A stretch of 64,000 bases of DNA, from positions 92,538,037 through 92,602,036 of the forward strand of contig JARFYF010000001.1 of assembly GCA_030265395.1 (NCBI GenBank), given 5' to 3'. Source of the DNA: Rhina ancylostomus (taxonomy: Eukaryota). Both the position numbers and the translations under genes were made by a program. Below, in pieces: positions 30,476-56,100 of this stretch (positions within the stretch are counted from its first letter, which is position 1; each line of letters opens with the position of its first letter). Under the pieces are notes generated by a model, which was not told the origin of the DNA, did not search any database, and was given only the letters and a program-made list of their open reading frames with translations.

Positions 30476-31639
30476 CTCCTGCATATTCCTCATTGATATT
30501 GAGTGGTCAATAAACTGGCAATTCAAACCCCACCTGAACAGCCTAATCGTGCGTCCACTCATCATCTGACTGCGTACCCATCCTACACCCCTGCCCAATT
30601 TGCCCCATCCCCCACCCCACCCATCATCATCCAATCAAGTGTGCCCTGATGCCTGCCCCTTGCTCACCATGCCCTTACCCCACCAGTGCTCCTAATGACC
30701 TGACTTCAGACCAACCCAGCCACCTGCTGGTCCCTATCTGCTCACCATCATGATCCATGCCTACCCATGCACTTTCACCAGCTACACAATGCCTAATAGA
30801 ATTAATCTGCCCAAGGGCCTCGTACGAAACTACCTCAGGACACCGACATAATGGCATACCATCCATGATTTCAGACATGGAACTCTCTAATTTATTCCCA
30901 AGTTTCCTGATAACTATTACCATCCTTTATCACTTTGTAGTAACAAGTCCATTTTTTAAAAAAGAACTCAATTCAAATCAGGAAAAAAATTTCAAACACT
31001 TAATGTCAATACCCATGCGTGAAATGTTGTGACCTAACAGCCATGAAACATTCCATTTTACTATTTCTATATCCCAACAAATGTGGGTCTTATGGCAGTT
31101 ATTGAAGGTGGAATTCAGATAAAAATTAGCTTAGACAAAAGGTGTCTGCCACTTCAGAACTGGGTACATGGCATAAGTGCCGGAATCATTTTACTCCAAA
31201 GTAGGAAGCTGCATCTGTTGCCATGCCAGTTCTTAGAAATAATTATCCATTTATCCCAATTCATTCCAAAGTAATTGAAAAAAAATATTCTTCCATAGTG
31301 TTTTTGACACTGCATTCCGTGACTGAGTTATCTTTTTACGTAAAAATACCTCGAAAAAGTCTCCACCCCATCCTTTTGTAAAGTAAAAAGTATAGCCTTT
31401 AGTTCCTGACTCACCAACCAGTGGAGATAGATTTATCTTGTTAGCTATCAATTCTCTTTTAAGCCCAGTATTGTATCTTCAATTAAACATTTCAAAAGGA
31501 TGAATATTTAAAAACACTCCATTTTTTTTTGTCTAAGACCTCATGTTCTCCATGAACTGCTTTAGGCATAGTGCAGTTCAAACTACTAGAGAATTGTGAT
31601 GTTTGCAAAGTAACTTTTGTACTACTTCGCAATGACAAC

Positions 31640-31955
31640 TGTTTAGATACTGCTCACTGCTCCAGCATCCTAGGGTTTGATCCTAACCTCCAAAGCTGTC
31701 TGTGTGGAGTTTGCAAATTATGCCTGTGATCATGTGGGTTTCCCCCCAGCAAGCTCCACTTTCAATTCCCTACATGTGTAGATTAATAGGTTAACTGGTG
31801 ACTGCAAATTTACCCTTTGAATGTAGGTGAGAGGTAGAATCTGGGAGGAGTTGGTGGGAATGAGGGGAAAATAAAATGGGACCAGTGTAAATAGGTGCTT
31901 GATGATGTGGACTTGGTTCACTGAAGGGCTTCCTTCCAGTGCTCTATGATTCTAT
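31640..31955 (+). mobile_element. HE1/V-SINE
   Basis: B box gggtttgatcct, V-domain gtctgtgtggagtttgca…tgtgggtttccccc, CR1-like tail tgaagggc…gtgctctatgattctat. Confidence 0.8.
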
Positions 31956-34704: not shown

Positions 34705-35025
34705 GTACATTCACAGCAGCACCTATGTTGCAACGCTCTTCTCGCATCCCCATCAACCACACACTACCCCCACTAATTCTCATGCTAACCACCTCTACTA
34801 GGGGTAATTTACAGTAGCCAATGAATCTATCAATCAACAGATCTTTAACATGGTGGGGCAGAGGGAAGGAAACCAGAATCCTTGCGGGACACCCATGTGG
34901 TCACAGTCCAAACTCAACACAGACATGGGTAAACTCACAGACCTAACTCAAGGTCATGATCAAACATTAAACCCAGATCTCGAGCTGTGATGTAGCAACA
35001 ATAACCACTGCACTACTGTGCCTGT
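34705..35025 (-). mobile_element. HE1/V-SINE, decayed
   Basis: ctaggggtaatttacagtagccaat…gaaaccagaatcc…acccatgtggtcacag…taaccactgcactactgtgcc. Confidence 0.7.
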
Positions 35026-35149
35026 TGGACTTCTACCCAGATCACAGTTCTACACAAGAGATAAACTGAACACCAATCAAACGCATTCACTCCTCAAATG
35101 TGGAAAGAACAGCTGCCTCCACAGAGATAGACAAAGTGCCTACTGACCA

Positions 35150-35480
35150 GGGATGAACGGGGATATCAAGGGAGCACGTGCAGAAATGCAAGCAGTTCTG
35201 ACCTCGAGAAAAGCAAACAGCCAAAAGAAACAATGCACTCTCTTAGAAGATCCTGGGCAAAAGTCAGAGCGAGATTTGTTTCACTGGGATGGGGAAGTGT
35301 ACATTGGATTATATTTCAAATTTCTGGGAGATGGCCTTATAAAACATACACTCATTGACAGTCAATCTCAAGCTTAAAAGACAGATATGGTTGTTCAGAC
35401 AGACAGATAATATGGTTAGACCTTTTGAAAATGTTATTGAATATGACCATACAACTATAAATTTCAACAAGTAATCATGG
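35150..35480 (+). mobile_element. Possible highly decayed AP-endonuclease of a non-LTR retrotransposon
   Basis: GDIKGAR (GDFNAR-like), TLDYI and DH motifs occur in the right order across frameshifts. Confidence 0.3.
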
Positions 35481-36479
35481 ATGTTTGTTAGATGTTTTGG
35501 GAAGATTGATATACAAATTCTATGGAAGAAACTCCAAGGCAAGAACTCCTTTTAACCAAGATTCAAGAAAAAAAGTTACAAGATATTTATTTACTTATCT
35601 TTTAGACATTTTCTCATGTTCCACGTAGAATAGTGCTTGTGCATCACTTCAAGAGTTTGGCTATTCCAAAGTCACAGTACTATTGCAACTAATTGGCAGG
35701 GTTTTTTTTTGAAAGAGCAGTCAACACCTAAGTTTTTTTGAGGTGTGTATGAAGGGCTTGTGGAAGATTCTTGATAAAGAACTCAAGATTAGAAAAGAAG
35801 CTAGTTTTTTTTTAAGAAAGGTATGGACACACAAAGAATTGTGGTTATTATGGCAGAACCAACATCATTTGGAACCACCACCTTCTCAGGAATTAAAGGT
35901 TCAGCCTTAAAAATTTCACAAAGCTGCCTTGACTTGCAGTAGACTATCTCCTTGAGGGACTAAAGTGAATGGAGGCTAGTGAAGAAAACTTCGACCTTCT
36001 GAATCCAGACTCTGTCAAACCCTACATACGGCATCCAACACAAGCTCAGATATCAGTTTCTTGAAGGAAAATGCATCCCACTCCAACAAACCCTCCATAG
36101 CAAGTTCATTGGTTAGCCCTTTCTAGTGCATTCAATATGCTTCCCTTGTTGATATTTTGCAGCAGAGATTGGACTCAGGAACATGTGCCTTATGCAAGCA
36201 CATGACCTGCCTGTTTTCCACCTTCAAACCTTTGCAAGCCACACAATCAGAATTCAAAGCCAGTTTCATACAACATGAAACAGCAATCAATTTCAATTGC
36301 CACTTTTTTTTTTAAAATACAGTGTAATCTTTAACTTCTTGGGACTGAAATGTTTTTGCTGTTTCGTTGAGTTGTTTTAACCCACTCTTCACTTTATTCC
36401 ACTTGTGGTCATGAATTTCACTCCCTCGCACATCAAAAATCAAATCATCAGGCAAATAACTTTGTAATGTTTGTCTCCA

Positions 36480-36850
36480 AGTCAGCAGGTTGAGAGGGTC
36501 TGGGGCACACAATTTGGGTTGACACTCTAGTGTAGTGCTGAATGATGCTGCAGCTGCTGGAGGTGGCATCTTTAGGTTGAGGCTTTAAACTCTCAGGGGG
36601 ACATTAAAAAATTTCATGGTGCTCTTATCTCCAGTATGATGGCAAGTATTTATTACTCAATCAATTTCACAAAAATAGATTATCTTGTCATTATCCCACT
36701 GCAGTTTTGAGAGTCAAAACTGCTTGCAAATTGTTTGCCTCATTTCCTACTTCACATCAATAATTACATTTCATAAGTACTTCACTGGCCATGTAGCACT
36801 TTGGAGGATCCCATGGTTGGAAAAAGCACCACATAAATGCAAGTCGTTTT
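36480..36850 (+). mobile_element. Deu-SINE (SacSINE1-like), near full length
   Basis: gtgtagtgctgaatgatgctgca…tggaggtggcatcttt…agattatcttgtcattatc…catttcctac…tacttcactggcc…taaatgcaagtc (L2-like tail). Confidence 0.75.
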
Positions 36851-39011
36851 GATAGCAATTTATGAAAGAGTGGGAAGTGCAAACAGTATTGGTTTCAACT
36901 TATCAAAATTTTGGCACTTGATTTGTTAACAGGATTGCTCCTTGTAATCTAGAACAGAACTTCTATTCTCTACGCAGCAAAAAAGCAGCAGATCTGGAAT
37001 AGAAATAAAGGTGACGTTCAATTGTTGCTTCCTTGGCAAAATACAACTAATTCCTAACCAAAAGGAAATATGATTTGGCAACAGTCTTTTCCTTTAATAA
37101 AACAAGTCTCTTGTGCATTACAGTGCTGAACCTGGAATCATTCAATCATGAACATGCTTGTGTATTATCTTTCAGGCTGCTGGCAGTAAGCCTCCTTTTG
37201 TGGAGTTCAATTGATTTTGGGGAAGATAAACTCACTCATTTCTCATTCACCACCAAAAAAAGAGACATTCATCAAAATGCAGTTTTAAGAGGAAATTTAT
37301 CTGAAAAAAAATAGTACTGTCATCTTTGGTTCACATGTTACCGCTTTGTGCTGTGATATGTTAGTGTTTTAAAATCTTATTTATGCTATTAACATATTAT
37401 TTAATCTTCATAGTTGTTCCTTTCCAGATCCATACTGTCCCTTGGAAATGGTGGTTGTTTATTACCAACAAAGGATGCATTTATTGAATGACCTAGTTCT
37501 GAACATATAGATCAGGTCTGAAGGATGCATGACAATGTGTGCTTTAAAGATCTTGCATGTGCTGGCCAGTAGAAAAGACAGAATTTAAATTTCTCTCCAG
37601 CATTAACAAGTGAAACTGGTTCTCTGAGGCTCTCCAGTACGTTTGTACACAACGATAGAGTAGACAACATGCATGCACAATACATGCATTACTTTAGTGT
37701 GTCTTCAACAGTTAATTTCGTTTGTATTTCCAGAGTTACTTAGTCTACACTTCCCCGACCAAATCCTGTTCTGAACAGAATTCTAACTGTACATAGAATG
37801 CCAGTCGCTAAACCACATCCCATTCCACATCCATTGTACGGAAGACACCATCCAAGCAAAACATTTAAGTATAACATTTCACCTTTAGTTTGTGGTTTTA
37901 CATGCACTGACTGTAAGCCAAGCATGCCAGCTGTTGTCTAGAGAAAGCAATTTAATAAGTCTATTGACCTTTGGAAATACAGTTTTCTTAGAAAATTTGC
38001 TATATGAATAATTGACCTGCTTTATAAACAAATATGCATTTATCAATTCTTTAACTAGCCACGGGGTACTTGATCATTACTGGACAACCATAAGCTTGCA
38101 AAAAAAATTGCAGTACTTATAACAGGAGTGTCTAAATAAGTTAGGTTATTTCAAGATTCAAACATTGCTTTACAAATGTTTAAGCAAATATTATAAGTAC
38201 ATTGCTACTTCACAGCCCTGATACACTTCCAGTATTAGAATGCCCAAATAGAATTGTTGAGAAATCAACTTTTCTAAAGATGACGTTTAATGTACATTTA
38301 ATTTCTTAACATAAACAGGCAAATGTGGAAATGTTTCTCCATTATTTGATCATGATTTTCTTCCAGAGGTAAATTGTTAAATCTTAAGTGCGACAATTAA
38401 CATATCAGACAGTTCTTACTAAAATATTCACAGTGTAACAGATATTTTATGTTCTATGAGAGAGCTTCACACTAGTCAGGAAAGGAAATCAAGCTTCAGT
38501 GAAGCAATGCCTTTCAGAAATTTGCACAAACTATTCCCACAAGTCTTGCACTAATAAGGCCTTGCATCAGTGCACAGAGCACTGAGCAAAATCTGTATGG
38601 TTTGATTGGCAGTCAAGTTACATATCAGGCTTCCAATTCCCTGCCACCAGTTGACAGAGTTGGTCAATTCTTAACAGGTCTGCAGCACAATAGGAAAATG
38701 ATGGGCCCCTCAGAGAGAGAGAAATGGTTTATTACAAATTCACCAATGGTTGTCTGAATTTATAATTGTCCTTTTGGTATGCTAGGCAGACTGTAAAGAG
38801 AAGTTATTTATGAATTTTGTCTGGTCAACAGATGCTTACCATAAGCCTATGGGATTTCCTTTGCTACATTAGGTTCTCCGTACCACAGTTTCAAAAAAAA
38901 AATTCAAGATCAAAAATGCTAAAGGAATATGTTAGAGAAGATACTTTTTCAAGCCTTTTACTTCCAAATATGAATTAACAACCTGTTCAGTACAAAGATT
39001 AAACATACTAT

Positions 39012-39288
39012 TGTAGCGGCAAGCTATGGGTAAACGAAACTCACTTGTATCGTTGCAGGTTGTTGAACAAGAAGACTGAATCCCTTCCTACCGGCGCTTA
39101 TATCCAGTTTGAAAGTCCCGTGCTCTCGTCGCTTTGCTGACGTCATGCCGGTCAGCTGACATTTGCCGTGCGCGGGCTTTCATCGTTATTAATGGAGATG
39201 TAGGACCCGGCTCCATCTTGGGCCGGGGAGCTCCATTGGCATGAGCTGCCGCGGCAGCTGGTTTGGAGCAGATAGGTGCGTCACTACA
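39012..39288 (-). mobile_element. Solo LTR, probably Gypsy-like (277 bp)
   Basis: Inverted termini TGTAGCG…CACTACA (TG…CA); sharply bounded CpG-rich block; on the minus strand CCAAT, CRE, TATA and Inr occur in U3-to-R order. Confidence 0.75.
39074..39239 (-). promoter_or_regulatory. LTR promoter motifs
   Basis: CCAAT (39235-39239), YY1-like CAAGATGG (39213-39220), TGACGTCA (39138-39145), TATAAG (39102-39097), Inr TCAGTC (39079-39074) about 25 nt downstream of the TATA. Confidence 0.5.
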
Positions 39289-40289
39289 GACCTAATACAT
39301 GGATCACCAATTTGACGCTGATGCCTAGTTGAAAATTCCCCTCCATTCACTTTGAAACACCTTAAAACCAATCCTCACGTTTACTTTAAATTGATGCTGC
39401 ATCATTGTGGTACTTCTGTGTTTCATGACATTCCTTGCGCTGAAATAAAAGTTTATATTCCAAGAGTCTCTTCATGCACCTACTCTTCAAAGATCCTTCT
39501 GCTCTGCAAAATTTCTGCAAGTATTTAAGTTGCAAAATATTTTCAGGATTTTTCATAAAAAGATGTGTTGAACTTTGAGACATTGCTGAGATCAGTGATG
39601 TAGAAAAACACATTGTTCCCCTTCTTTCTGTGCCTGAGGGATTCCTTTGCAGATCATGTTGGCTAATACCAAAGGTTTAAATGTTTGAAATCTAGGACTT
39701 CCATGCATGCGCTGTCAGACATAGAAGCCGTGAATTTACTGATAGATTCAAATCTCTGAATTTTCAGTTCCACATGGGGTTAAAGTGGCAGAGACCAGAC
39801 TTGCTAAGGTCCCCCAGCACTTGTACAGTAGAGTCACCTCTCCAGTCCAGAGCTAGATTAGACCTGCCTCAGGATCTGAGATGCCACTGACTTCTTCAGG
39901 GATTCTAGGACTGGGGATTTAGGAGCCAAAGGGGAAGGGGATTCACATTCTTCAAAATTATTTTGCTTTGTCTAATTTTTTTAATTATTTATTGTAAAAT
40001 TTTAATTGCTTTATTTATTCTAATTTTAATCATTCTTAGATGTCTCAGAAACAAGGAGATTTAAAAGTAATTAAGAATTACTCACAGATGACGTCTGGAA
40101 TAATAAAAAAAAATCGGATAAGTACAGGCATCGGGGACCAGAGGCAGTGATTCTGGGTACATGGGCTGGGGACACAATCTTTGGTCCCTGTTCATAATGC
40201 GCACCCTTCAGAAAGAGGGAGATGAATGCAAAAGGAATATTATAAAGAATTAGTGATAACCAGGTCAGCCTCCTGAAAAGATATTTTTT

Positions 40290-40632
40290 CTTAATTTATT
40301 CACCCATAAAATATAGACATCATAGGCAATGGCAGCATTTGTTGTCCACCCCTAATTGTCCCCAAACTGAGGAGGCAATTAAGGGTCAATCACATATAGG
40401 CCAAACCAGGTAAGGACTACAGATTTCCTTCCCTAAAAGGATGTTAGTGGACCACATGGGTTTTTTCAACAGTGGTTTCAAGGTTAATGCTACTGGGGCT
40501 ACCCATTTTAAAGTATTTAAAATAAACCTGGGATTATAATTTAAATTCCACAGCTGCCCCGATGAGAGTGAAAGTCATACCTCTGGATCAATGGCCACTA
40601 GTCCAGTAAATTAACCACAGCACTAACATACC
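40290..40632 (-). mobile_element. SINE/LINE-tail element, decayed
   Basis: ggcagcatttgttgtccacccctaattgtccc…ggccaaaccagggtaaggac-like…agatttccttccctaaa…ctagtccagtaaattaaccac. Confidence 0.55.
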
Positions 40633-41764
40633 CAATCATCCAGATAGAAACTACACTGTTCCCAATTAGCCTCATTCTCACAACTTAAATGATCTAAACT
40701 GCAAAAGTAAGTTATAGTTTAATATGTAAAGGCAGTGATTATTTTGAATACAACTCATTTACTGTCTTTAAAATTACTTAATTTCTATTTTACATGAACT
40801 CCTACACCTATCTTTGATCAATGAGCAAACAACTTTACAAATTAAAGCAATTTTGGGTTATTATGAATGTTATTATTTGTGTAATTGGCCACATGAAAAT
40901 AAATTCTCAGGTAATTGTTCAATCCATTTTGCAACCATCCATTGAATTTAATTTGCAAATCAATGTCATCTGTTTTTCGGAAGACCATTTATGTCTTGTA
41001 TTTAATGATTTTATATATTTTATTGTATAATTAGAAATTCCTTGCTGCTATTGCCATGAATTATTTACCCTTTCATAAGCACAAACAATATTATAGTTTT
41101 AGGATTCAGCACTCAGGACCTCAAATCTGATGACCTAGATTTCGGTTCACTTTGTGAGCTATTTTGTTTCATTGGAACAACTGCAATGTACATTGTTATT
41201 GAAATGTTAGAAAAATGTAATACAATTAACAGTAGCAGTAAAGCTGAGGGATGATGTCATAATAAATGAAGTTGTATGAGTTTTCACAACATCACCATGG
41301 ATAACTGCAAGAGCCACTATCACAATATTTTTCTGGCTACTTAGATCTCATATTGAGTTACCGGAACATAGGAAAGGCCACATAGTCTCTTAACCCATTC
41401 CAGCATTCAGGACTAATCTGTGACCTGCACAATATATCTGCATTTGCCCTTGACATCTTTAGTTTAAAAAAGTTTGTTGATTTCACATTTAAAAGTAACA
41501 ATTGACACTTTGCTGTCTCAACATCTGATCATTGTCAATATATACTACAGACTTCAAAACATTGCATGTATTGTCAATTTACTGACTTCTTTTGTTCTTC
41601 AGTGTAGACCACACTTGGAATGCTGTTCACTGTTCTGGATGAAGAATATTTGTGAGGTTGCCACACAACAGTTCAGTTATACTTTTCAGGAAAAGTTGTA
41701 AGGGTTGGGGCTAATTAAAAGAAAAAACAAGTTAGTTCTAACCCAGAACTTTAAAATATTGAAG

Positions 41765-41885
41765 ATACAAGAGACCGCAGGTGCTAGAATTGGAGCAAAA
41801 TACAATCTGCTGGAGGAACTCAGCGGATTGAGCATCATCTTGGGGGGGTGGGGGAAGAACTGTCGTGGCCCTGCATCAGGACTGC
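41765..41885 (-). mobile_element. Penelope-like terminal fragment
   Basis: gcaggtgctagaattggagcaa…tgctggaggaactcagcgg…ccctgcatcaggact. Confidence 0.65.
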
Positions 41886-42544
41886 TTATTTCTGTGTTGT
41901 GCTGTTCCTCCATTCACTGACACAATCCATTCCTGGGATTCTGAATCTTCCACATGATAATTTAGCTATATTTTGGTTGAGTTAGTCAGCTTATTCCATT
42001 TTGTTGTTCCTCATTAGCAACTGCTGTCACAAAATATGATTTCAGCCATTAGAGCAATAAAGATGAAATTAATGACTTGAAAATGATCAAAATGATAAAT
42101 TACAGAGTGTGCACATACTCACATAATTACTGTTATGTTGTCAAGCCTAAGGATACTCAGCTTCTGCCTCACTCTGGTGGTTACATTCAATTGCTGCAGT
42201 AATCTGTCAATATTCCTGTATACATCGAGAGCTGTAAACACTACCTATTGGCTTTGAGCCTATTTAGACTTATGTTCTTAGCTTAGAAATACACAGAGAT
42301 CCTGTTTAGTATTGATCATTGTATTGTCCACTAATCATTTTGTAAAAGATCCAAAGGATGTACTTCATGAAAGATGCATCAATCACAGTTTTAATCTCAA
42401 TCCATGTGCTCAGTTGCAACAAAGATGCTAAGATTTGCCCTCGCGTCTCCTTGCTAGTTTATCAGTCAGTGTTCCCAATTGTGATCTTATATATTTGCAC
42501 AAGTCATTTGAAAGCCATGTAAATACTTTGTGGAGCTAGTATTG

Positions 42545-43580
42545 GCCAAAAGGTGGTGGTGAGCCATCTTCTTGAACCACTCCAGTCCTTCTGATAAAGG
42601 TATTCCCAAAGTATTGCTGAGTAGGGAGTTTTAAGAATTGGAACCAGCAACAATGAACCTGTGACAATATAGTTCAAGTCAGGATGGTGTGTGATTTGAA
42701 CCATTGCATAGAGTCTGTTGCTGTTATCCTACTTGAGGTAGGGATCTCGGGTTTGGGAGATAATGGCAGAGAAGCCTAGTTGAGTAACTACAGTGCACTT
42801 TGAAGATGGTACATTTTGCAACTAATGTGTGCTCGTGTTAAGGAAATGAATATTTGGAGTGGTGTATTGGGTAACAATCAAGCAACCTGCTTTATCCTGG
42901 ATAGTGCTGAGGTTCTTATGAGCATACAAACAAAGATATAAGTTGGGGGCAGGAGCAGACCACTAAGCCAGATTCTGCTCTGTCGTTTAATAAGATCATG
43001 GATGACCTCAATGTAACCTCAACCCAGCATTTCCATCTCCCTCAGGTAACCTTTCACCTCGTTTGTCAAGAATTTATTTAAAGGCTCTATCTTCATCAGC
43101 CTTTACTTTTAAACCTACATCTAGATTCTCCAACAAGAGGATGACTTCTCCTGGAGTACTGCACAGTTGTGGTCTCCTTATTTTAGGAGAGTTATACTGC
43201 ATTGGAGACAATTCAGAGAAGTTTCCTGGAATAAAGAGGTTGCCTTGAACAAGTTGGGGCTTATACTTACTGGAGTTCAGAAGACTGAGGAATGATCTTG
43301 TTTTTTTAAAAAAAATCAGATTCTGAAGGAAATTGACAGGATAAATGGCAAAAGCATGTTTCTCTAGAAATAGGGGGACATTATTTCAAGGCATAGTTTA
43401 CAGGTTGCTCTTTTGAGACCGAGACAAAGAGGAATCTTTGAAATTCTGTACCTGAGTAAACTGTGGAGGCTGAATTTATCAAATATCTTCAAGATCAAAG
43501 TAGAAAGATCTTGATTTATAGGAGAGTTGAGGATAAGAGGGAACAGGCACAAAAATCAGATCAGTCATGATTTAATTGCA
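42545..43580. mobile_element. Cluster of LINE fragments (CR1/L2-group family and CR1, both strands)
   Basis: aaggtggtggtgagccatcttcttgaacc (minus family), then tactgcacagttgtggtctccttattttagga…ctggagttcagaagactgagg (CR1 plus). Confidence 0.65.
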
Positions 43581-43584
43581 GTGT

Positions 43585-43892
43585 TCAAATCAGGTGAACT
43601 TGACCTATAGAGGAAATCAAAGTATGACCTTTGTAAAGTCATCAAGGATGCCAAGAGTCAATACCAGTCCAGAATGAATCCCAGATCAACCATCCATTCT
43701 GGCAGGCCTTGCATGGTAAAATGAGCTACAAAATGAAGTCGGGCAGCATCGCTGACAAACGCACCTCCCTCCACAGTGAGCTCAATGTATTCTATGCACG
43801 TTTTGAGCAGAATGGCAATGAAATGACACCACCCACCTGACAGCCTCTAAATGCAATTTACCTTCAGTCACCGTTGCAGATGTCGGATCGGC
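43585..43892 (+). mobile_element. Rex1/Babar LINE internal fragment
   Basis: ttcaaatcaggtga…tatgacctttgtaaagtcatcaaggatgccaagagtcaatac…gagctcaatgtattctatgcacgttttgag (ELNxFYARFE motif). Confidence 0.75.
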
Positions 43893-45235
43893 NNNNNNNN
43901 NNNNNNNNNNNNNNNNNNNNNNNNNNNNNNNNNNNNNNNNNNNNNNNNNNNNNNNNNNNNNNNNNNNNNNNNNNNNNNNNNNNNNNNNNNNNGAGAACCT
44001 GACTGCTGCGGAGGAAATACTATAAAGCTCGCAAGACAACAGTTCACTCAAATCTATTTATGAATGGTTTCTGGCACATGGCGAAATCCATTAAGTTAGC
44101 TACTCCCTAAACGTACTCCCATGGAGGCAGGACAACAAACAGAGCAGAATTTGGTGCTGCAGTCTCAGAAGGGTTTGCATCAAAATCATCCATTAGCAAT
44201 GCCAGAAGGCAGTAGCAAAAATATCTGGGTTTAATCACTTAGCCTGGCTGTGGAATTTAGCTGGCTTTGAATGCCAAGAAAATGGTCATCCAGCATGCTA
44301 AAAGTTCTGGGGCAGTCTGAACCTTGGATCCAATTAAAATGTATGAACTGTGACTTTTCCATGTTTATCAGCAGACTCATCCTTATAAAAGTAAAGACAG
44401 ACAATCTGCTTGATATCTCTTGTGGCACCTTCTTGTAAAGGTGCTTTCAATAGATTTTCCAAAGTCCCTTGGTATTGCTATCTGGTCTTTATAACATTGC
44501 AGCTTCTGCTGCTCACACTTCGGTTATTTTCTTTCCAACATTATGAGGACTGGATGTCAAAGCTACTTCATTGGCTGTGAATCACCTTGGGATAGCTTGA
44601 GATCATGAACAACACTGTACAGATGAAAGTCTTCACATTCATCTGTGACACAGGAGATAAACAAACAGCTTGCACGTATTTGACAATTTCAATGTGGTAA
44701 AACTTCCCAAAGCACTCATCTGGGTTGTAATCTGATGAAGACTGTCTGAAGTAAAGATGACGACATTAAGATAGCCTCATCATAGATACGTTATTATGAC
44801 AGGATAGATAAAGCTAGAGGCCTGCACACTTAAGCAGAAACACTAACTTGGAGCCAATTCCTCATTTGGTCTTGTTCTTACTCTACACCAAATTAACACA
44901 TTAAAATTCAAGACATGATGCAAAAGGAATCTTCCTTGGAAATTCTCCTACAAACAGAAATTTTTGGAACAAATTTAAAAAACAAGTGGGACATTCCGTT
45001 CCATCCTAAGTTTTCATAAACTTCCAAAAATAAATGGGTGTGCAATTTTGACAGGTTTGATTGTTTATTGAACCAGTACTGTTGCACCTGGGCAGTATCC
45101 AAAGGGGAAGCAAACATTTTTTCTGGAAACACTATTTTATTTCTTAAGTAGTGAAATAAAGTTCACAGAATTACCCCATGATCTAAGAGCTTGAGAAAAA
45201 CCCCAACTATTCGAGCAAATCTACCTACATCGATA

Positions 45236-45415
45236 AGAATCAGAATCAGGTTTATTACCACTGTTTTATTTGATGTGAAATTTGTTGTTTTGCAGTGGCA
45301 GTAGAGTGCAAAGACATAAAGTTAACATAAATTACAAAATAAGTAGTGCAGAAAAAAGGAACAATGAGGCAATGTTCATGGACCAGTCAGAAATCGGCTG
45401 ACACGGGGAAGAAGT
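45236..45415 (-). mobile_element. Rex1/Babar LINE 3' tail
   Basis: agaatcagaatcaggtttattacc…gtgaaatttgttgttttgcagtggcagt; (GATTCT)n-type tail in reverse. Confidence 0.6.
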
Positions 45416-45867
45416 AGCCTATGTGCACGTCACTTGGCTTCCCCAGCTCCTTCCTGTCTCAACCCTCTCTTAATGAAGAGTAGTGAGTGAGGAAAATAAT
45501 CTTCAGGAGATTGCAATCACATGTCATTACTTACTATCCATTACTTGGGTCACCTTCAGCACTAAGGAACCTTTTAAATTCACTTTTGAAGAATAACTGC
45601 CATGCATTTTGGAAAGTTTATGGTTAAGGCTGATGATATTCTGTGAAATAAAGTACACAGAATATTTCTTGGCATCTGGTCTAAATCTCTCCGTTGTGTC
45701 TCCGAATTNNNNNNNNNNCTGTACATGTAAAAAAATGCAAGAGACAAACCTGCAATTTCAACCTAATCTGCCTGGAAAGAAATTGGCTCCAAGAGAATAA
45801 AGTCTCGTTCATTTCCTACCAGGCATTACACTAAGGCATGATCACAGAAGTTTGTTCAAAGCAAAAA

Positions 45868-46095
45868 AAGAATACACTGCTGGTGAACTCAATGGGTCAA
45901 GCTGCATCTGTGGAGGAAAACAGATCGATGATGTTTCAGGTTGAGACCCTGCATCAGGCCCGAGTGTGTAGAGGGAAGATAGCCGGCATACAGACGTGAG
46001 AGAAGGGATGAGACAGAGGCTGGTAGGTGATAGGTGGAACTAGAAGAGGCGGGGTGATGGGAAGGGTGGGATGATGGGCAGATGGAACCAGCTGG
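45868..46095 (-). mobile_element. Penelope-like terminal repeat with hammerhead relic (45921-45960)
   Basis: Reverse complement ggc-CTGATGC-agggtctcaacct-GAAA-catc…, followed by cacagatgcagcttgacccattgagttcaccagcagtg. Confidence 0.7.
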
Positions 46096-47409
46096 ATATA
46101 TGAAATCTTCTGGCATGTACTGAAGAGCAGAAGAATTCTATAAATAATTTCAAGACAGTCTCCAACTTTAGCCAGTCACTTACTTTTGAATTGTGACTTT
46201 GCCACAGATAATTTCCACAAAAGTGGCCACATACAGCAACATGAGGGAGAAAAAAATTAATCCTTTTGTTTTAAAAATAAAGTTGGTTCAGGGATTAATG
46301 TAAACCATTACATTAAGTGGAGAACTCACTTCTTCAGTTAGTATCATACACCCACTTGAAAAAGGTCAAGGTATCCTAGTTGAAAGCATTGCCCAAAAAT
46401 TGGCACCTCTAAAATGCTCAGTTAAGTGACATTTAAAATGTCGGATTGAAATGATACAGAGACAAGAATTCTCACACAGATCCAAGGTCGTCACTTCATC
46501 AGTGACGTTGTATCCTGTACAATGCCTGAAACTACCCAGTCACAAATGTACCACACTGCACTGATGCATATTAATAATTCCACCAGAAGTCCATAACTGA
46601 ATTATTTTATCTTTTCTAACATCTGCAGACATCTGCAGGTCATCAAACTTGAACATTTCTTCATTTAAGTCACAGATAAAAGAAAATAAACTTCTATTTC
46701 TAATGCACAACAACAGTCTCAATACAGATTGCTGCTGAACTTGTGTGGAGGTCCCATATGCAGAACAGCTTCAATGAATTACTACCCTATGCTTTAGTGA
46801 ATACACTGATTGTTATCCAGCATTGATTCTTCCCCTAACACCTTACTTAACAGTCAAGGAGGCAAGACATTTTATCAAAGGGTTTTTGTAATTTAACATT
46901 ATATATGTTGGGTGAACATAATCTTTCAACATCTCCTCAAAGTAGTTAAGAATACCTCCATTCTGAAAACTTTTTGTCACCCTGTAATAACAGTTGTGCT
47001 CTTAAATCAATACTTTCTTACATTTTTTGCGCTCTATTTAATCCCTAAAATTAAATTAGAGTCAGGCTGGAACAAAAAAACAGATAGGGATTCTGCACTA
47101 GTTATGATTGCAGAACCACAACATTTATTCTCGCTCTTCTCTGAAAATGACAGCAACTTCAAAATTTTTGCACATGCAGTTTAATACAGAAAATTCTGAT
47201 TTGCCATTGGCCATTTCCAAATACCTTCACAAGGTGCATATCCAACCTCCTCCAGGAAAATCAAGAGAAGTGATAGAAAATGACATGAATTCAAGTCATT
47301 CAGAAACTAGTTCACAATATACCTGAAAATCCTACACTTTGCTAATTCACATTTTAAAGCTCAGCAAATTACCTGGCCCTAAAAAATATTTAGGGGTGTA
47401 TATTGTTAT

Positions 47410-47735
47410 TCCCTGAGTGAATATTTCAAAATAATGAGCCAGAGCTTGCTACCAGCAGCTTGTTGTCACAAGCCACCTAAACTTTTGGTGATCTACGTGG
47501 CAAGTATAAACACGTGTCACAGATTCCCCAATGCCAACTTGGAACCCTAACTGAGACCTTGTCCTCAATAGCAAAGCTGTGTGTTGGGACACACATGGGA
47601 ATCTGGAATGACACTGCCCATGAAACTGCAGGGAAAATTTCCTTGAGAGCTGATTAGGCCACTCTTTCTAGCTTAGGTGGCTGTGAAACCTGCTAGCAAT
47701 GTGGAAGTGCTTCTGAATATCTCTGTCATTCAGAA
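47410..47735. repeat. Decayed nested palindrome (MITE-like)
   Basis: cacaagccacctaa (about 47467) pairs with ttaggtggctgtg (about 47673); gtgtcacagattcccc (about 47514) pairs with gggaatctggaatgacac (about 47597). Confidence 0.6.
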
Positions 47736-48539
47736 ATATGTGACACATTACAAAGCCATTCAAAAATTCAAACAAGCTTTAAAGAACCTGAAATATTTAA
47801 CCATAAGGCAAACATTTAACTGAACTGAATTTCATTAAACAAATGATAAATTGCTGCCTCACATCCAATCCTCTATTAAAAAAAGTGCATCTGCTCTTCC
47901 TGTTCAAGGTTCAACAGGTGATTCCTGCCATAGGTTCAAGCTCCACCACTGGTGGCACTTGTGTGAAGAATCAATAAGCTGGGGCACTTAAGCTAAGAAA
48001 TGCCAGCAGTTCAGAACAAAATTGCCTATCTGACCATAAAATCTGGCCAACCGATTTTAATGTTTATGACCTGTTATTTGCTAGCATAATCATGCACATC
48101 TTCCAATTTTTATTGGGTGCTCTGGACACTTTAAAAGGTGAATTGAATATCTGTCTTTGATTTGTTCCTTCNNNNNNNNNNNNNNNNNNNNNNNNNNNNN
48201 NNNNNNNNNNNNNNNNNNNNNNNNNNNNNNNNNNNNNNNNNNNNNNNNNNNNNNNNNNNNNNNNNNNNNNNTATCACTCTTTGATTTGTTCCTTCAGTGT
48301 GAGTGCACGCTCATCCAGCTTGATGACAACACCATTGGATGCCAGGGATCCTGTTGAACTGTTGTCTGACTGTAGCAGGTAATGGAAGAGAGAAACCTTC
48401 TTTCAGAACAGTGGTAAGTGCTGTGGCTACTCCACAGACTGTGGGTCATGTACAACTATGTTTCAAACTGGTGACAATTCATTTAGTTTTGAGATGATTT
48501 CTCATTCATCTCATTACCTCAACCAAAATTAACAATGTC

Positions 48540-49830
48540 ACATCAAAAACAGAGTTCAAGGTCTTCTTCATCAATACATTTGAGACCAGTCTGCTCAGCT
48601 CCACCCTCCCTTGCCTTAATCCATCAGCTACTTCTGTTTATTCCAGCCTTAGCCCCAAGCTCTCTCACCTTTTGCTAGATTCTCTCTGAACTCCCTTTGT
48701 GCCCTGATCCAAGCTCAGCGAGTCCTTTGGACCAGCTTCTTGCCCTTTTAATCCTATTCCTATTAAACTTCTGACCATTCAAACTTATTTTCCGGGTCCC
48801 ATTTTAGTTGATACCATGAGCAGTTCTTTCTCTACAGGACCTGATCTCATTCAAATCTTCCATGGTCACCACCACTTTCATCTAAATAACAACCAACCCT
48901 TGACACCCTTTTTTTTTTATTTANNNNNNNNNNNNNNNNNNNNNNNNNNNNNNNNNNNNNNNNNNNNNNNNNNNNNNNNNNNNNNNNNNNNNNNNNNNNN
49001 NNNNNNNNNNNNNNNNNNNNNNNTCATCTAAATAACAACCAACCCTTGACACCCATTTTTTTTTAATTTAATGTGGTAACAGGCCCTTTCGGCCCAACAA
49101 GTCCGCACCGCCCATTTTAAGCCCCAAATTAACCTACCCGTATGTCTTTAGAATGTGGGAGGAAACCGGAGCACCCAGAGGAAACCTACGCAGATACGGG
49201 AGAACGTACAAACTCCTTACAGACAGCGACGGGAATCAAACCTCTATCGCTAGCGCTGTAATAGCATTGCGCTAACCGCGAGGCTACTGTACCATCCAAG
49301 TCCTTGCAAATAACCATCTTCAACTTTATCTTTAAGATGCTGTTGTCTCCTAGGACTTTGCCCCTTTTTCTCAGACCCCAGAACTAAATCCTTTCAATCA
49401 AGTCTCTATACCTACCACAGTACTCATACCAAAGTCACAAATTATATCCACTGCGACTGTAAAAAGAAAAAGGCTAATTATTTCTCCTTTCCTTCTCAAA
49501 CCTGTTTGAGAAGTTTGATCACACCAACTTCTTCAACTGCCACTCCATCTCCATCCAGTGGAGTTAGACTGCACCCATTGGATTCCAATATTATAGATCT
49601 GGTTGTAAACAGAGGATGGTTTCTCATCCCTCTCCCACACCATTACCTCTGATCCCCTGCAAGGTCCCACCCTTGGCCCCATACTATATCTCAATTACAT
49701 GCTGACTTTCAGGGATGTAATTTGAAGATACAAAATGGGACAAATTGTCATCTGCCTACAACTCCTAAACATGCTAGCAACTCTTGACTAATCATTTTCT
49801 GACTATGGTCTGATGGACTCAGAGTCCTCG
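48540..49830 (+). mobile_element. Decayed L2 LINE, interrupted by a young SINE
   Basis: caacccttgacaccc…caaataaccatcttcaactttatc…taccacagtactcataccaaagtcacaaatta (ST…KV.ND)…gtcccacccttggccccatactatatctcaattacatgctg (GS.LGP.LF..Y), pyrimidine-rich L2 RT relic. Confidence 0.55.
49070..49293 (-). mobile_element. Young HE1/V-SINE
   Basis: acaggccctttcggccca…gaatgtgggaggaaaccggagcacccagaggaaacc…agaacgtacaaactcc…gcgctaaccgcgaggctac; many CpGs retained. Confidence 0.85.
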
Positions 49831-50539
49831 GATGGACTGCAAATTTTTGGTAATGTTCCAGCATTTACACTAAGAATTGGGCCAACAGAACCTGTGTTAG
49901 GCTGAAGCAGGTAGAGGAACAGCACCTCCATTCATTTGAATGGAGTGCAATAGCTTTTGGGAACAAAGGCCATTGTTGGTAAGTTACGTTTTAATTAATT
50001 GAGTTTAGTTAAAATCTCAATTGTCTTTAAGGGTGCTCAAATATGTTTTAAAAGTTTTTTTTAATATAAAAGAACAATTATTTTACAAAATGTTTTAAAT
50101 GGTCTTATTCTTTGTCAACTTTGAGTATTTTTGAGTGCTTCCTAGCCACCTAGCCAAGTTTTTTTTATGGCTATTTCATTGGTGGAACTTGTTCTGCCAA
50201 TGTTTTCCCCTAACCAGAGTGACAGTGTTTGCATGCCACTTTGCAGGGAATTGGGGTGAAATTGCACAGGATACTGGCACCAAAGGATCCACAAAAAGGC
50301 AGCCTGGACTTTATTCTCGGTCAGCGATGAGTACAGTAGCTAGACACTGCCAGGAACTTCTGGCCAATGTCAGTGTCCACATATATGCTGCCAACCCCCA
50401 ACTCTCTTGAACCCTGTACCATTGAGACTCCTTGTTCAACATCCAGTACCAGGCAAGCAAATATTTCTTTCATTTAAAAGGTGGGCAAGACATAAAGCCA
50501 ATGTCTCTGCCACACGTTTCACTCTGTAAGCAGCAGTTC

Positions 50540-50790
50540 CACCACACATTTTGGCAACTGAGGTTCGAACAGAGCTTACACAACCTTGGTATCATGTGTG
50601 GCCACGGGACGAGCTTCCACCAGCATCCACACCTTCACAACCACCTATTTATACCTCCGCAACATTGCCCAACTCTGACACAGTCTAAGCCCAATTACTG
50701 CTGAAATTTTCATTGACATCTTTGCTATTTCTGTATTTTCCTATTCCAACACATGCCCAGTGCTCTCCAAGCTTATTTCCTTCATAAATG
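50540..50790 (+). mobile_element. L2 LINE fragment
   Basis: cacaaccttggtatcatg…accacctatttatacctccgcaacattgcccaact (NLGV…AYFHLRNIA motif). Confidence 0.6.
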
Positions 50791-52932
50791 TTCAAATCCA
50801 AAGACTTGGGTGTTTACACCTCTTTTGGAACAGCTTGAAGTATGAAGAAATTCAATACATTACATTTCCTCTAACTTTTTCAAATTTATCCTCACAGAAA
50901 ACAAATGAAAATACATTTTCAAGAAGCTTTAAAGATCAAAGACCTAGAAAAATAAGGGCACCATTTTGACCAACAGTGGATATTTGAGGAGGAGATGTAT
51001 GCAAGCCAGATCGTAATGGAACTACCCCAATCATATGCAATTTTGCAAACAAATCATGGAGAAGTGAATACCAGGTACCGACCATATCTTATTTATTTAT
51101 ACGTTAAGAAACATTTGTATTGCTCTCAAATAGTTAAAATTTATGTGCAACTTTAAGTGCAAATGCAGTAGTAAGTATTCTTCAGGATTGAATTTTTCTA
51201 TTTTAATTGATAACTGTAAATAAAGAGAAAATAAGGAATTACTTAGAAAATTCAACTTCTATGCATTTTTCTTTCAGAACGTGGCTTTAAAAATGCAGGT
51301 ATTTTGCCAAGAGTACATCTAATCACATCTGTTTTCTGGATACGTAATAGATTAAACCAAGTCAATGGCATGACTAATTCAAGGGAAAAAAAACAGATGA
51401 GTGACAATGGAGAATAAGCAAACATCATTATNNNNNNNNNNGTTTAATACATTAACCAAAAGTTCAGATTTTGATATCAAAAATATCCAATTCAGTCAAG
51501 CTCGCAAAAAACTTCAATAGAAACCAAAAAAAAATCAATAAAATAAAAATAAAAGCAAGCACAATCCACTTTATAGAATAATTTGAATGATGTTGCCAAA
51601 AAATGTGCATTTTTTATTTTATTTACAGTGTTCTGAATTACCATCATGTTTGACACGAGTGTTAAGCAGAAATGAAAAGCCAAAACAAATGGGAGAATGA
51701 TTACTCTGCATGCACTAATTGAGAATGTCTGTTGTTGCACCATCTGGCTACAAGAATTGCACAGTAGGTGTTCCATGCATAACTATACTCAAATTGTGGA
51801 TGAGAATGTCTCCCTTGAACAAATGCCTGCTGCAGAACATGAATTATTCTTGAAAATTTCATTAAGTGATGCAGACTCCATGAAAAACTAGAATCCGAAG
51901 CAAGACATTCTTTTCATCATTCTTTACAGGATGAAATTAAATGGTTTGTGTGTGTTCAACAGATAATGTCGTAAGTAACAAATCAATACTCAAGTAACTT
52001 TCAAGATGCAGACATCTGCTATATTTCTGACCTCCCTCTCAACAAGCCCATGACGCGCATGTGTGTATGTGCTTGTGTATGTGCAGTCCTTTTTCAAATG
52101 ATGTTCATTCATACTGATCTGCCAGCTCTGATCAAGCCACTTAGCATTTCTGACAACCCTACTTTGGTTTCCCATTACCAGCAACTACAATATTGTTTCA
52201 CAACAGTTAAAATCTCAGTTTTCTAGAGACTAAGGAATGTCTTTTATTCATGGGATTATAAATTATAATATCCATTCCTGAACTGCAAATGAAATATTTT
52301 AATCTTTGGTGTAGGTTTAAAAAAATTAGTTTAATGCCTTAACTACAAGTGTTATCAAATAAGGCCATTTAGTTACATTCTTATGATTGCTTGAAAGGTT
52401 AATTACCTCAGACCAATGTGTTAAGGGAAATAAAATGAAAAGATACGTGGCTTTGGGAAAAAAAAACTGACAGTGAAAACATTTAGGCTTTTAAGAATGT
52501 AGCTAGATAAGTAGTTAATTTTTATACAACTCAATCTATAAAGCCAGCACAACAAGGGTGACTAAAACAAACTGAGCAAAGTAGATAACTTAATTGGCAA
52601 CTGAAGCTTCTCAACGCGAGCCTCTATCCTTATGATCTCCTTCAAAAGGAAGGATGTATCACAAGGAAGCAAACAAAACCAAAACTGAGTCAGCACCTAA
52701 TTCTTCTACAGGTATTTGTTTTCTCATGCAGATTATACAGTTACCCATAACATTTTGGCCAAATACAAGAGTGTTTATTATGCATGTTCTGTTTTACACA
52801 CATGTAATTATCTATCCATACGTCTTGTGCACAGTCAATTTCAAATGCACTCACTGGTATTTTAAATGCAACAACACACACTGCCACATGAACAATTATT
52901 CTCATTTACCTTAATTCATTCATTTATTTTAC

Positions 52933-53100
52933 CTGGAGCATATCCCGACGTAGCAGTGCAGGCTTCCACATCAGGGAATTGGAATACGCTGACACAGGAG
53001 TGCACGATCTCACAGACGCACTGCCCATTTAGCAGATTACAACCAGATACCTCAGGGCACAAGTCATGTTCTGGCACAACATCCTCAATGAATTCTATTT
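52933..53100 (-). CDS. Internal coding exon of a CRIM1-like (cysteine-rich motor neuron 1-like) gene, equivalent to CRIM1 exon 2
   Basis: Minus strand: acceptor tttatttctttcttctgcAG, then 168 nt, then donor CAG|GTaaaa; phase 1-1 and open. Translation xIEFIEDVVPEHDLCPEVSGCNLLNGQCVCEIVHSCVSVFQFPDVEACTATSGYAPx. Cys spacing C-x5-C-x6-C-x-C-x5-C-x11-C, with GCNxxNGxCxC and FxFP, matches recalled human CRIM1 exon 2 (PCNENLIAGCNIINGKCECNTIRTCSNPFEFPSQDMC, C-x7-C-x6-C-x-C-x5-C-x11-C). Confidence 0.85.
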
Positions 53101-56100
53101 CTGCAGAAGAAAGAAATAAATTTAGTTTCAGATAAAGACATTAAAGCATCAGTCAACCTTTTAGTGCAGAAATCAGAGAATTCAACATCGTGCTTCACAT
53201 CTTCAACTATCAATTGAAGGGCAGATACCTTGAAATTTAACGATGCCTGCATCGCCAACTGTGCCGAATACTTCCTTCAGCATATTTATTATGCCTCCCA
53301 GATTCATTCCTTTGATTTCAAACCAATGAATGAATTTCAGAGGCAGGGACAACCACCCTGATGTGATGACAACTTAAGGATGAATTTCAATCCAAAACTT
53401 TCTTAATTTGCTTTCAAGTATGTATTCTATCTCATTTGTTTATTTGAAAAGTATTTTCAATTTGTGTCCTTTTCAACATTCTTGTAGAATGATATTGTGC
53501 TGGATTCCAAGTTTTAAATCAGCAGCCAAGTTGTGCATAGGGGTGGCTTCTCACAAAAACCTCAATTTGAATTTAAGTCTACATATGCAATCCAGACGCT
53601 TATTAAACTAGTACCATGGATAGCAGTTGCTGAGCAGCAATCAACTCTTGCTTTGCCTGTTATCTTTATTTGTCAATTCAATAAGTTAATCTTTCTCAAA
53701 AACAAAAAAAAATTGAATGGAATGTTTAATGCTGCAGTTCGGAAATAAAACCAGATGAATTCTTTCTGAAATGAAATTAAAAATATTTAATAGGACAATA
53801 GAGGTCAAGTTAATGTTTAAAAACATGCTCTTATTTCAAGGAAGACTGCTACAAAATAATGTTTTATAATTTCCCCAGAGGCCTTTGATCTTTTCACTTA
53901 TNNNNNNNNNNNNNNNNNNNNNNNNNNNNNNNNNNNNNNNNNNNNNNNNNNNNNNNNNNNNNNNNNNNNNNNNNNNNNNNNNNNNNNNNNNNNNNNNNNN
54001 NTGGGTATAAATCAGAAACAAGTTTATTGGTACAAGGGATAATGGGTCAAACATGCTGACCAACAGCTGGCATGAAATCACTGGCCTCAGGCTTAGCTCA
54101 TCTTGGACTTCCATGCTCATTCAGTAAAACATGGATATCCTCAGGGAGCTGGAGGTCAGAGTCAGGCTCCCTGACTGCTCAAATTCAGCATCCCAGCTTT
54201 ACCCAATTGATGGCAAATCTACAATTAGCAATTTTGTTCATATGAATGGCATCCATGACCCTGTGGAGAAAGTTAAGAGTTTCAATTAAAATTTAGATGT
54301 TTTTAGTTATTTACATGTATTTTAGTGTTTTTAATTACATTTAAAAATCTCTAACCATCAAAGCCTTCTGAAAACTGTTCTAAAGGTCTTTCACTCTGAG
54401 GAACAATCAAAAGGTCTTCAGACATTCAAGAGAAGGAGCCTCAGCCATATGCCACCTCTTCGTCACCAACTGGAGCATTGCAGGGTGCCTCTTGGGTATG
54501 GAGGGTCAGCTTGATTCAAACCGCCACAGCTGGAAAAGCAAGTCTGAAATGACTAACACTACAGTGGAACAGCCTGGGTACCAGTTGGGTCCAGCACAAA
54601 ATGGCCCATAGCTTGGTCAGTTTATGTTTGATAACTACCTCGTTAAATCCCACATCATCCACACATTTGAGACCGATCATGTAATTGCACTGATGAAACA
54701 ATGTGCTGCCAGAATGCTGAGATAAACTATCATGACATCAAACAAGAACAATGAGTTTGGCATTCCTGCAGGAAGTATTATCTTCTCAAATCAATGTGCA
54801 CAAATCATTCACATGAACACAACCACATCAAGGCTTTTCCTCCCCACCCTGAAGAAAGATTGCCAACATTTTTGATGAAAACAGTACTTCTTTAAAATTT
54901 TGGACTGTCAAAAGGAGTTAATTCAGTCTTTGCCAAGAGCTTCCAGAAAGGCCTGTGTGAAGTCTCTGTCTTTCTCTGTTATAACTACTACGTGCCAGGA
55001 GGCCAGGTGTTAGGAAATTAAAAACTCTGCTTTAGGCCCATGACTGGGAGGCAGTTAGGGGAAATTATATGCTGCAGCCAAGAAATTCAAATGAAAATTA
55101 TTTGTGTTTTTAAACACATGATAGCAATGCCTCCAACAGGACTACAAAAGGACCGCTTCAGCATCTAGGTACATTAACACTTCACATACATGTCTGATTA
55201 TTAAAAGATTTAGGAAGTCAGCAAAAGGATAAAAATCACATTGGCCATCACGTGTCCTAAACCCCAGGCTGCCCTGCGGATGTTATGCCGAAGTGGGAAC
55301 CAAAATATTAATAACATTTATTTTGTAATACCACCAATGGAACCACAAATGGGTGCAAAAATATAATGAATGATTGCCCGATTTAAATCTGGACTGTGCA
55401 GTGGTTAATAAGACTGCAAACTATTCCATTCTTACAGATGCATATTGGTTTACCATCTCTCATTTTCTATGCAATCAGCTCCTCAAGCATGTAAGAAATA
55501 GATTGCTTCTTGCTGGTCTTTACCAAACCAAATAGAAGAGGAGATGCCTATCCAACTCAGGATATGCAATATTCCCAGTTGGTGCATGGAAGAACATAAA
55601 TACCCAATTTTCCTTCTGGCCAATCTGGATAGTTCAGGCACACTGTTGGATGAGCTGTTAAACTGGGAGGAAATAAAGGCTGCACCTCCCGGACAGAGGG
55701 GACTGCAGTAACATTCCCAGCTGTTGAGACAGAAACCTATTGACTGCAAAGCTTCAGGTGATCAAGGAAACCAGTTAAAAGATTCTGTTGTCTGCCAGTG
55801 AAATTTTCAGATTATCACTGGATCTGACGTTCAGCAAAAATCTCGGACAAGCCTTAGCTGTGAGCTCCTCTCCTAGAGACCAGTGAGAGTTGCCAGAAAA
55901 AAAAACAGCTGTGGAAATGCATCCCACCACTGTTACATTAACTGCACTTTCCCTGCACCCATTACAAGTATGGACTTATTCGCTTCCTGTGGTGAAACCA
56001 CAGGAAGTATCAGTGGGATTCAATGAGAGAAGACGCACTGAAACAAATTTACTACTTTTTCATTACTGCCCGAACTTATGGAGCTCCGATTACAGAGCCA

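What the first reader, a model, noticed from the sequence alone, without database searches (positions are those of the whole stretch)
52933..53100. Hidden exon of a divergent CRIM1-like gene, missed by the ORF track
Seen: canonical AG/GT sites, a strong polypyrimidine tract, and a 168-nt phase 1-1 open frame with six Cys. Established (from recall): CRIM1 exon 2, just after the IGFBP domain, is a phase 1-1 exon of about 174 nt with the same GCNxxNGxCxC…C…FxFP…C pattern; the 2-residue difference falls between Cys1 and Cys2. Inference: CRIM1 orthologues are well conserved in this exon, so the divergent flanks (IEFIEDVVPEHDL, TATSGYAP) suggest a separate paralogue or another protein reusing the module, perhaps a little-studied growth-factor-binding gene lost in mammals.
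Basis: partly seen in the sequence, partly recalled or inferred. Interest (0 to 1): 0.7.

Follow-up and report, generated by a model that had tools for sequence, protein, structure and literature searches.

The report
Exon of fishes' second CRIM1 gene
This is a real, spliced exon of a ray's intact second copy of the cell-surface gene CRIM1, a copy already auto-annotated in many fishes, likely born in a vertebrate genome duplication, likely lost in land vertebrates, and predicted to tether growth factors as CRIM1 does but without CRIM1's integrin-binding module.

Summary
The exon is real: minus strand 53100-52933, AG/GT, phase 1-1, 168 nt, six Cys. Transcript-like contigs of a close relative stop exactly at its edges and join it to exons 42 and 90 kb away. 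It is exon 2 of an intact 14-exon, 895-aa gene, 92-98% identical to ray proteins that RefSeq already lists as 'CRIM1-like'. The two form separate 100%-supported clades spanning sharks and bony fishes, on contigs that share beta-spectrin, SIX and BMP2/4 duplicates: likely a whole-genome-duplication pair. The paralogue keeps IGFBP, five VWC, four antistasin, TM and tail, but lacks the RGD module and sixth VWC. It occurs in chimaera, sharks, rays, ray-finned fishes and coelacanth; no tetrapod copy was found. Function is inferred from CRIM1 (BMP/VEGF tethering). Searches found no paper on it. It matters modestly: zebrafish crim1 is described as a single gene with viable mutants, and many percomorph proteins named 'CRIM1' are this paralogue.

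The parts
52933..53100 (-). Exon 2 (168 nt, phase 1-1) of the CRIM1 paralogue; encodes an acidic linker plus a six-Cys module with no Pfam family, predicted as a beta-hairpin plus helix
   Evidence: Pfam none; model pLDDT 77
53101..53125 (-). Splice acceptor AG and polypyrimidine tract of intron 1
   Evidence: sequence; contig edge
52927..52932 (-). Splice donor GTAAAA of intron 2
   Evidence: sequence; contig edge
53101..64000 (-). Part of intron 1 (41,804 nt); exon 1 (signal-peptide-like start + IGFBP) lies outside the window at G000:C1:92633286-92632941
1..52932 (-). Part of intron 2 (89,923 nt); exons 3-14 lie outside the window at G000:C1:92501045-92434977
   Evidence: no other coding exon of this gene, no Rfam match and one stop-free frame of 170 aa or more in the window

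Best explanation
The stretch is exon 2 of an intact, spliced 14-exon gene for an 895-residue single-pass membrane protein, a paralogue of CRIM1 that likely arose in an early vertebrate whole-genome duplication, was likely lost on the line to land vertebrates, and is predicted to bind and hold cystine-knot growth factors (BMP, VEGF, PDGF, TGF-beta) in the secretory pathway and at the surface of the cell that makes them. Shown: exon, splicing, full reading frame, domain order (IGFBP, six-Cys exon-2 module, one Cys-rich repeat, VWC x2, antistasin x4, VWC x3, TM, tail), separate canonical CRIM1, two clades, shared duplicated neighbours. Inferred: origin by genome duplication rather than a large segmental one; loss in tetrapods (absence from protein searches only); ligand tethering (from CRIM1, C. 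elegans crm-1 and Drosophila crimpy). Because it lacks the RGD-bearing module and VWC6, it would keep the ligand-handling role but not CRIM1's RGD-dependent integrin-FAK role. Exon 2 itself is a frame-preserving cassette that RefSeq models skip in some isoforms, so it likely acts as an optional spacer module between IGFBP and the VWC array.
For: Gene model: 14 exons, all GT-AG, 2688 nt with no internal stop, 821/895 identical to Hypanus CRIM1-like and 878/895 to Pristis CRIM1-like. Domains (scanned on the Hypanus orthologue P0002): IGFBP, VWC x5, Antistasin x4, CRIM1_C, all over cut-off; predicted TM helix 785-818. Canonical CRIM1 on C63:125.44-125.67 Mb with FEZ tail-to-tail at 125.82-125.85 Mb. 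Trees: paralogue clade and CRIM1 clade each 100/100, each holding cartilaginous and bony fishes, invertebrates outside. Paralogon: beta-spectrin exon next to the gene has 4 copies, on C1, C63, C69, C71; SIX on C1 x3, C63 x2, C69; BMP2/4-type domains on C63, C1, C69. Architecture: RGD module present in 0 of 122 paralogue-type and 28 of 28 CRIM1-type proteins; VWC6 in 0 of 122 and 27 of 28; tunicate and hemichordate proteins have both, so the paralogue lost them. Range: all 17 tetrapod-named rows among the 120 listed of 301 hits are canonical; the 120 listed of 362 hits of the coelacanth paralogue hold no tetrapod or lungfish name except one Mustela label on a protein 99.8% identical to tilapia. 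Function of CRIM1: binds TGF-beta, BMP, VEGF, PDGF through its VWC repeats when co-expressed (PMC4731764, PMC3879820, passages); RGD needed for FAK phosphorylation (PMC4725338, passages). Exon-2 skipping: P0383 vs P0002 and P0386 vs P0385 differ by exactly this exon.
Against: No experiment on this protein; which VWC repeats bind ligand is not known to me, and about half of the residues differ from CRIM1 (51% identity). Synteny is imperfect: 2 of 5 marker families (striatin, LCCL) pair C1 with C2, not C63, and no FEZ lies on C1. Timing is unresolved: hagfish and lamprey fall outside both clades (89/89, 93/91; long branches) but placing them with either is not rejected (p-AU 0.13 and 0.23). Tetrapod loss rests on the listed top rows of two protein searches, not on genome scans; 7 rows are unnamed; lungfish appeared in neither class. 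All transcript evidence is contigs from one study of a related organism. Canonical CRIM1 of cartilaginous fishes reads PGD, not RGD, so the integrin contrast may not apply in this lineage. In mouse lens, BMP signalling was unchanged in Crim1 mutants (PMC4725338, passage), so ligand tethering is context-dependent even for CRIM1.
Confidence: 0.7

Rival explanations
1. Same paralogue, but it has changed job: a tissue-restricted adhesion or matrix receptor or protease regulator (antistasin repeats, Kunitz-like exon-2 module) that no longer tethers growth factors.
For: Lost two modules; long stem branch and faster evolution than CRIM1 in bony fishes; the exon-2 model's best fold matches are nearly all Kunitz domains (22 of 23 rows).
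Against: Those matches are weak (best Z 3.3, rmsd 2.6, 39 aligned; Foldseek E >= 1.8); the five VWC repeats are the best-conserved part between paralogues (56-73% per exon); invertebrate homologues regulate BMP (PMC3879820, passage).
Confidence: 0.2
2. The paralogue came from a single-gene or segmental duplication in a gnathostome ancestor and only happens to lie on a chromosome paralogous to that of CRIM1.
For: Immediate neighbours differ (beta-spectrin, DCAF5 vs FEZ); cyclostome sequences fall outside both clades in the best trees; two marker families pair C1 with C2.
Against: 3 of 5 marker families have members on both C1 and C63, and a striatin-LCCL pair (human neighbours of CRIM1, recalled) lies 9 Mb from the gene on C1.
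Confidence: 0.12
3. It is the ordinary CRIM1 orthologue, or a dead exon.
For: Databases name many members simply 'CRIM1'.
Against: A separate canonical CRIM1 exists here; the frame is intact, spliced and 76-87% identical across sharks and rays.
Confidence: 0.01

Closest known systems
[quoted passage not shown] XP_059811032.1 Hypanus, XP_051883854.1 Pristis, XP_015206403.1 gar, XP_064421074.1 coelacanth, XP_073784068.1 zebrafish)
   Same: Same gene: 92-98% identity to ray proteins, same length and exon-2 peptide, one clade.
   Different: Automatic models only, with no distinct name; ray-finned fish members often carry a second copy of the exon-2 module.
[quoted passage not shown]
   Same: IGFBP, six-Cys exon-2 module, VWC and four antistasin repeats, TM and CRIM1_C tail in the same order; matching exon boundaries for the shared exons.
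   Different: About 51% identical; five not six VWC; no RGD module; 14 exons against about 17; 168 vs 174 nt exon 2; different contig and neighbours; not found in tetrapods.
Invertebrate CRIM1 homologues (tunicate, hemichordate, echinoderm; C. elegans crm-1 and Drosophila crimpy from the literature)
   Same: Outgroup to both vertebrate genes; exon-2 module detectable in Phallusia and Strongylocentrotus; reported BMP regulators (PMC3879820, passage).
   Different: Keep the longer ancestral architecture that CRIM1 kept and the paralogue shortened.

Membership tests
CRIM1 family (CRIM1 and homologues) | N-terminal IGFBP domain | tested here: met
   PF00219 35.4 bits over cut-off 28 on the 92%-identical orthologue P0002; exon 1 mapped
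CRIM1 family (CRIM1 and homologues) | Array of VWC repeats interrupted by four antistasin repeats | tested here: met
   5 VWC and 4 antistasin stretches
CRIM1 family (CRIM1 and homologues) | Single TM helix and CRIM1-type cytoplasmic tail | tested here: met
   PF19442 52.2 bits over 27.2; helix 785-818 in the model
CRIM1 family (CRIM1 and homologues) | Cleaved signal peptide | not tested
   Hydrophobic N-terminus seen in the sequence; no predictor run
CRIM1 family (CRIM1 and homologues) | Binds cystine-knot growth factors | not testable with these tools
   Needs biochemistry
Vertebrate CRIM1 orthologue | Groups with tetrapod CRIM1 to the exclusion of other copies | tested here: not met
   Separate clade, 100/100; the C63 gene is 85-100% identical to Hypanus CRIM1 per exon
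Vertebrate CRIM1 orthologue | Lies next to FEZ2 (human arrangement recalled) | tested here: not met
   FEZ matches on C63, C2 and C60, none on C1
Vertebrate CRIM1 orthologue | Six VWC repeats and the RGD-bearing module | tested here: not met
   0 of 122 paralogue-type proteins have either
Whole-genome-duplication pair (ohnologue) with CRIM1 | Duplication after the split from tunicates and before the shark/bony-fish split | tested here: met
   Vertebrate node 95/90 and 92/91; both clades hold both lineages
Whole-genome-duplication pair (ohnologue) with CRIM1 | Both genes on paralogous chromosome segments | tested here: met
   3 of 5 marker families on both C1 and C63; 2 of 5 pair C1 with C2
Whole-genome-duplication pair (ohnologue) with CRIM1 | Assignable to the first or second round | tested here: inconclusive
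   AU tests with cyclostomes p 0.13 and 0.23; hagfish only 0.053 and 0.10
Kunitz/BPTI fold (for the exon-2 module) | Structural match to Kunitz domains | tested here: inconclusive
   Best Z 3.3, rmsd 2.6, 39 aligned; Foldseek E 1.8, TM 0.52; no Pfam match

The most novel reading that the evidence does not exclude
CRIM1 is one of an unrecognised ancient pair that was lost reciprocally: tetrapods kept only CRIM1, percomorph fishes (medaka, fugu, cichlids, stickleback) kept only the RGD-less paralogue under the name 'crim1', and zebrafish keep both, the paralogue buffering crim1 mutants, which are viable while mouse nulls die.
Probability: 0.3. Interest if true: 0.5.

Novelty: new member of a known kind. 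Interest (0 to 1): 0.3.

Why it matters
It corrects orthology in a disease-gene family. A 2025 zebrafish model of human CRIM1 eye disease calls crim1 'the single crim1 gene', reports viable, breeding homozygotes and never mentions a paralogue (PMC11922885, passages), yet zebrafish has this second gene (XP_073784068.1): a double mutant is an obvious test. Many medaka, fugu and cichlid proteins named CRIM1 are this paralogue, so comparisons with human CRIM1 there may be between non-orthologues. A natural CRIM1 lacking the RGD module could separate ligand tethering from integrin signalling. The gene itself is auto-annotated and of a known type, and earlier windows of this scan already flagged it, so the surprise is modest.

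Tried and rejected
Pfam, PDB sequence search and ESM Atlas on the exon-2 peptide: nothing usable. Fold searches of the module: only weak Kunitz-like rows, not taken as a family assignment. Complex prediction of the VWC/antistasin region (P0002 253-735) with this genome's BMP4-type dimer: no answer, score 0.00, alignment not used; no evidence either way. No listed run is on record as RNA. AU tests with lamprey alone rejected both placements only because they split lamprey from hagfish; discarded in favour. The careful tree did not finish; the quick tree is cited. Neighbour hunt: 140 and 148 splice-flanked candidates from 200 kb on each side gave 2 and 3 Pfam hits; it is insensitive, so other neighbours may be missed. 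Search for a second copy of the exon-2 module in intron 2, as in ray-finned fishes: no match. Whether percomorphs have a canonical CRIM1 could not be settled: none among 28 canonical rows or 15 listed of 199 members of the teleost cluster, but canonical CRIM1 of Polymixia and Lampris is only 55-57% identical to ray CRIM1 and scores below the listing cut, and names are unreliable (Chanos, Amia and Callorhinchus paralogues also lack '-like'). Literature: 0 papers for 'CRIM1-like', crim1+zebrafish+paralog+medaka (45), CRIM1+'lost in tetrapods' (73), crim1+percomorph (100); CRIM1+paralog+shark gave 2 unrelated listings (14); searches listed none on a paralogue (listings only). The ohnolog-database paper PMC13450315 (outline, section 8, its one supplementary file) had no CRIM1 in the supplement; its web database could not be seen and may list the pair. 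The 2013 coelacanth genome paper with a list of genes lost in tetrapods (recalled) is not held. Supplements of PMC11922885 were listed, not read. Subscription papers are not covered.

Full report
Observation. The window is G000:C1:92538037-92602036 of a 2.2-Gb genome. On the minus strand a pyrimidine tract and AG precede 53100 and GTAAAA follows 52933; the 168 nt between are open in phase 1-1 and give a 55-residue peptide with six cysteines. It is the only such cassette in the window and none arose in 40 simulated windows. Contigs from three runs of one study (kind guessed as RNA) cover exactly 52932-53102 and run on into sequence that matches exon 1 and exon 3, 42 and 90 kb away; the two listed differences are synonymous. 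The exon is real and spliced.

The gene. All 5 candidates of the peptide search are shark or ray proteins named CRIM1 or CRIM1-like, 76-87% identical over the whole exon. Mapping the Hypanus protein gave 14 exons on C1 minus, 92633286-92434977, all GT-AG, encoding 895 residues without a stop, 821/895 identical to Hypanus and 878/895 to Pristis CRIM1-like, so the organism is a ray. Only exon 2 lies in the window. The orthologue P0002 has IGFBP, five VWC, four antistasin and CRIM1_C domains and a predicted TM helix.

Paralogue, not orthologue. The peptide's second hit in the genome (39% identity) is a 174-nt phase 1-1 exon on C63. It belongs to a gene 85-100% identical per exon to Hypanus canonical CRIM1 (15 exons seen; one apparently misplaced on C61, one not found among N stretches) and is followed tail-to-tail by FEZ. 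Trees of 23-32 chosen proteins give two clades at 100%, each with cartilaginous and bony fishes, and invertebrates outside; fragments and most teleost rows were left out of the trees. Hagfish and lamprey fall outside both, on long branches, and neither alternative is rejected.

Origin. The gene's neighbours are a beta-spectrin and DCAF5. The spectrin exon has four copies, on C1, C63, C69, C71; SIX genes lie on C1, C63, C69; BMP2/4-type domains on C63, C1, C69. Striatin and LCCL lie together on C1, 9 Mb away, but their partners are on C2. From recall, this is the human 14q versus 2p paralogon. Three of five families support C1/C63 directly; I infer a whole-genome-duplication pair without fixing the round.

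Range. Of 150 listed proteins from two searches, 122 are paralogue-type and 28 canonical. The paralogue is in chimaera, sharks, rays, bichir, sturgeon, gar, bowfin, teleosts including zebrafish, and coelacanth. All 17 tetrapod-named rows are canonical, and the coelacanth query's 120 listed of 362 hits hold no real tetrapod record. Loss in tetrapods is likely but rests on protein listings; lungfish was not seen in either class. No percomorph canonical CRIM1 appeared, while percomorph paralogues mostly carry the plain name CRIM1; canonical CRIM1 is fast-evolving in Polymixia and Lampris, so either loss or divergence below the listing cut is possible.

How it likely works. CRIM1 binds BMP, TGF-beta, VEGF and PDGF through its VWC repeats when made in the same cell, slowing their processing and holding them at the surface (PMC4731764, PMC3879820; passages read), and signals to beta1-integrin/FAK through an RGD motif (PMC4725338; passages read). 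The paralogue keeps five VWC repeats, but 0 of 122 members have the RGD module or VWC6, against 28 and 27 of 28 canonical ones; tunicate and hemichordate proteins have both, so these are losses. I therefore predict a growth-factor tether without the RGD-integrin arm; this is inference. The exon-2 module has seven invariant residues across 54 sequences of both genes (six Cys, one Gly), folds as a hairpin plus helix (pLDDT 77), has no Pfam family and only weak Kunitz-like fold matches. RefSeq isoforms skip exactly this exon in two species and the bichir model lacks it, so it is likely optional.

Novelty. The gene is already modelled automatically in many fishes. Nine literature searches found no paper on it (listings only, open-access library). 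Two earlier findings of this scan in other genomes reach the same reading; my reading was recorded before seeing them, and they are not independent support. What is worth following up is the orthology correction: zebrafish crim1 homozygotes are viable and the gene is called single (PMC11922885, passages), whereas mouse mutants die (PMC4731764, PMC4725338), and the paralogue is an untested candidate buffer.

Verdict.

Noticed in passing
G000:C61:15986142-15986270 (L077:5143-5271): A lone exon of canonical CRIM1 (residues 452-494 of the Hypanus protein) lies on C61, while the matching exon was not found on C63, where N stretches lie between the flanking exons: likely an assembly misplacement.
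   Followed up: partly
G000:C1:92.30-92.38 Mb (L049-L057): Downstream neighbours: a WD40 gene whose best natural PDB match is DCAF5, a single-exon GC-rich gene and an acyl-CoA-thioesterase-like exon that I recognise from recall as TMEM187-like and ACOT-like (names from no call).
   Followed up: partly
G000:C1:92.81-92.84 Mb (L039-L041): Beta-spectrin gene upstream on the same strand; four copies genome-wide on C1, C63, C69, C71.
   Followed up: yes
G000:C2:10.5-10.6 Mb and C63:125.8 Mb: The striatin-LCCL pair that follows CRIM1-FEZ2 in human (recalled) is on C2 here, not C63: a rearrangement or assembly break.
   Followed up: no
P0008, P0010, P0025, P0053, P0293: Ray-finned fish members carry a second, diverged copy of the exon-2 module; shark, ray, chimaera and coelacanth members have one.
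   Followed up: partly
P0027, P0048, G000:C63:125575700-125575830: Canonical CRIM1 of cartilaginous fishes reads PGD where most bony vertebrates read RGD.
   Followed up: no
P0321, P0162: Hagfish models also lack the RGD module and VWC6 and have an AAW motif before the TM segment like the paralogue; the models may be incomplete and the tree does not decide.
   Followed up: partly
P0011: An nr record labelled Mustela putorius furo is 99.8% identical to the tilapia protein: a mislabelled record that could be mistaken for a mammalian copy.
   Followed up: yes
L061:1218-1643: Integrase-core match of a retroelement about 14 kb downstream of the gene.
   Followed up: no
window 3502-4065 (-): A 188-codon stop-free frame with no obvious protein character, the only one of 170 aa or more in the window.
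   Followed up: no
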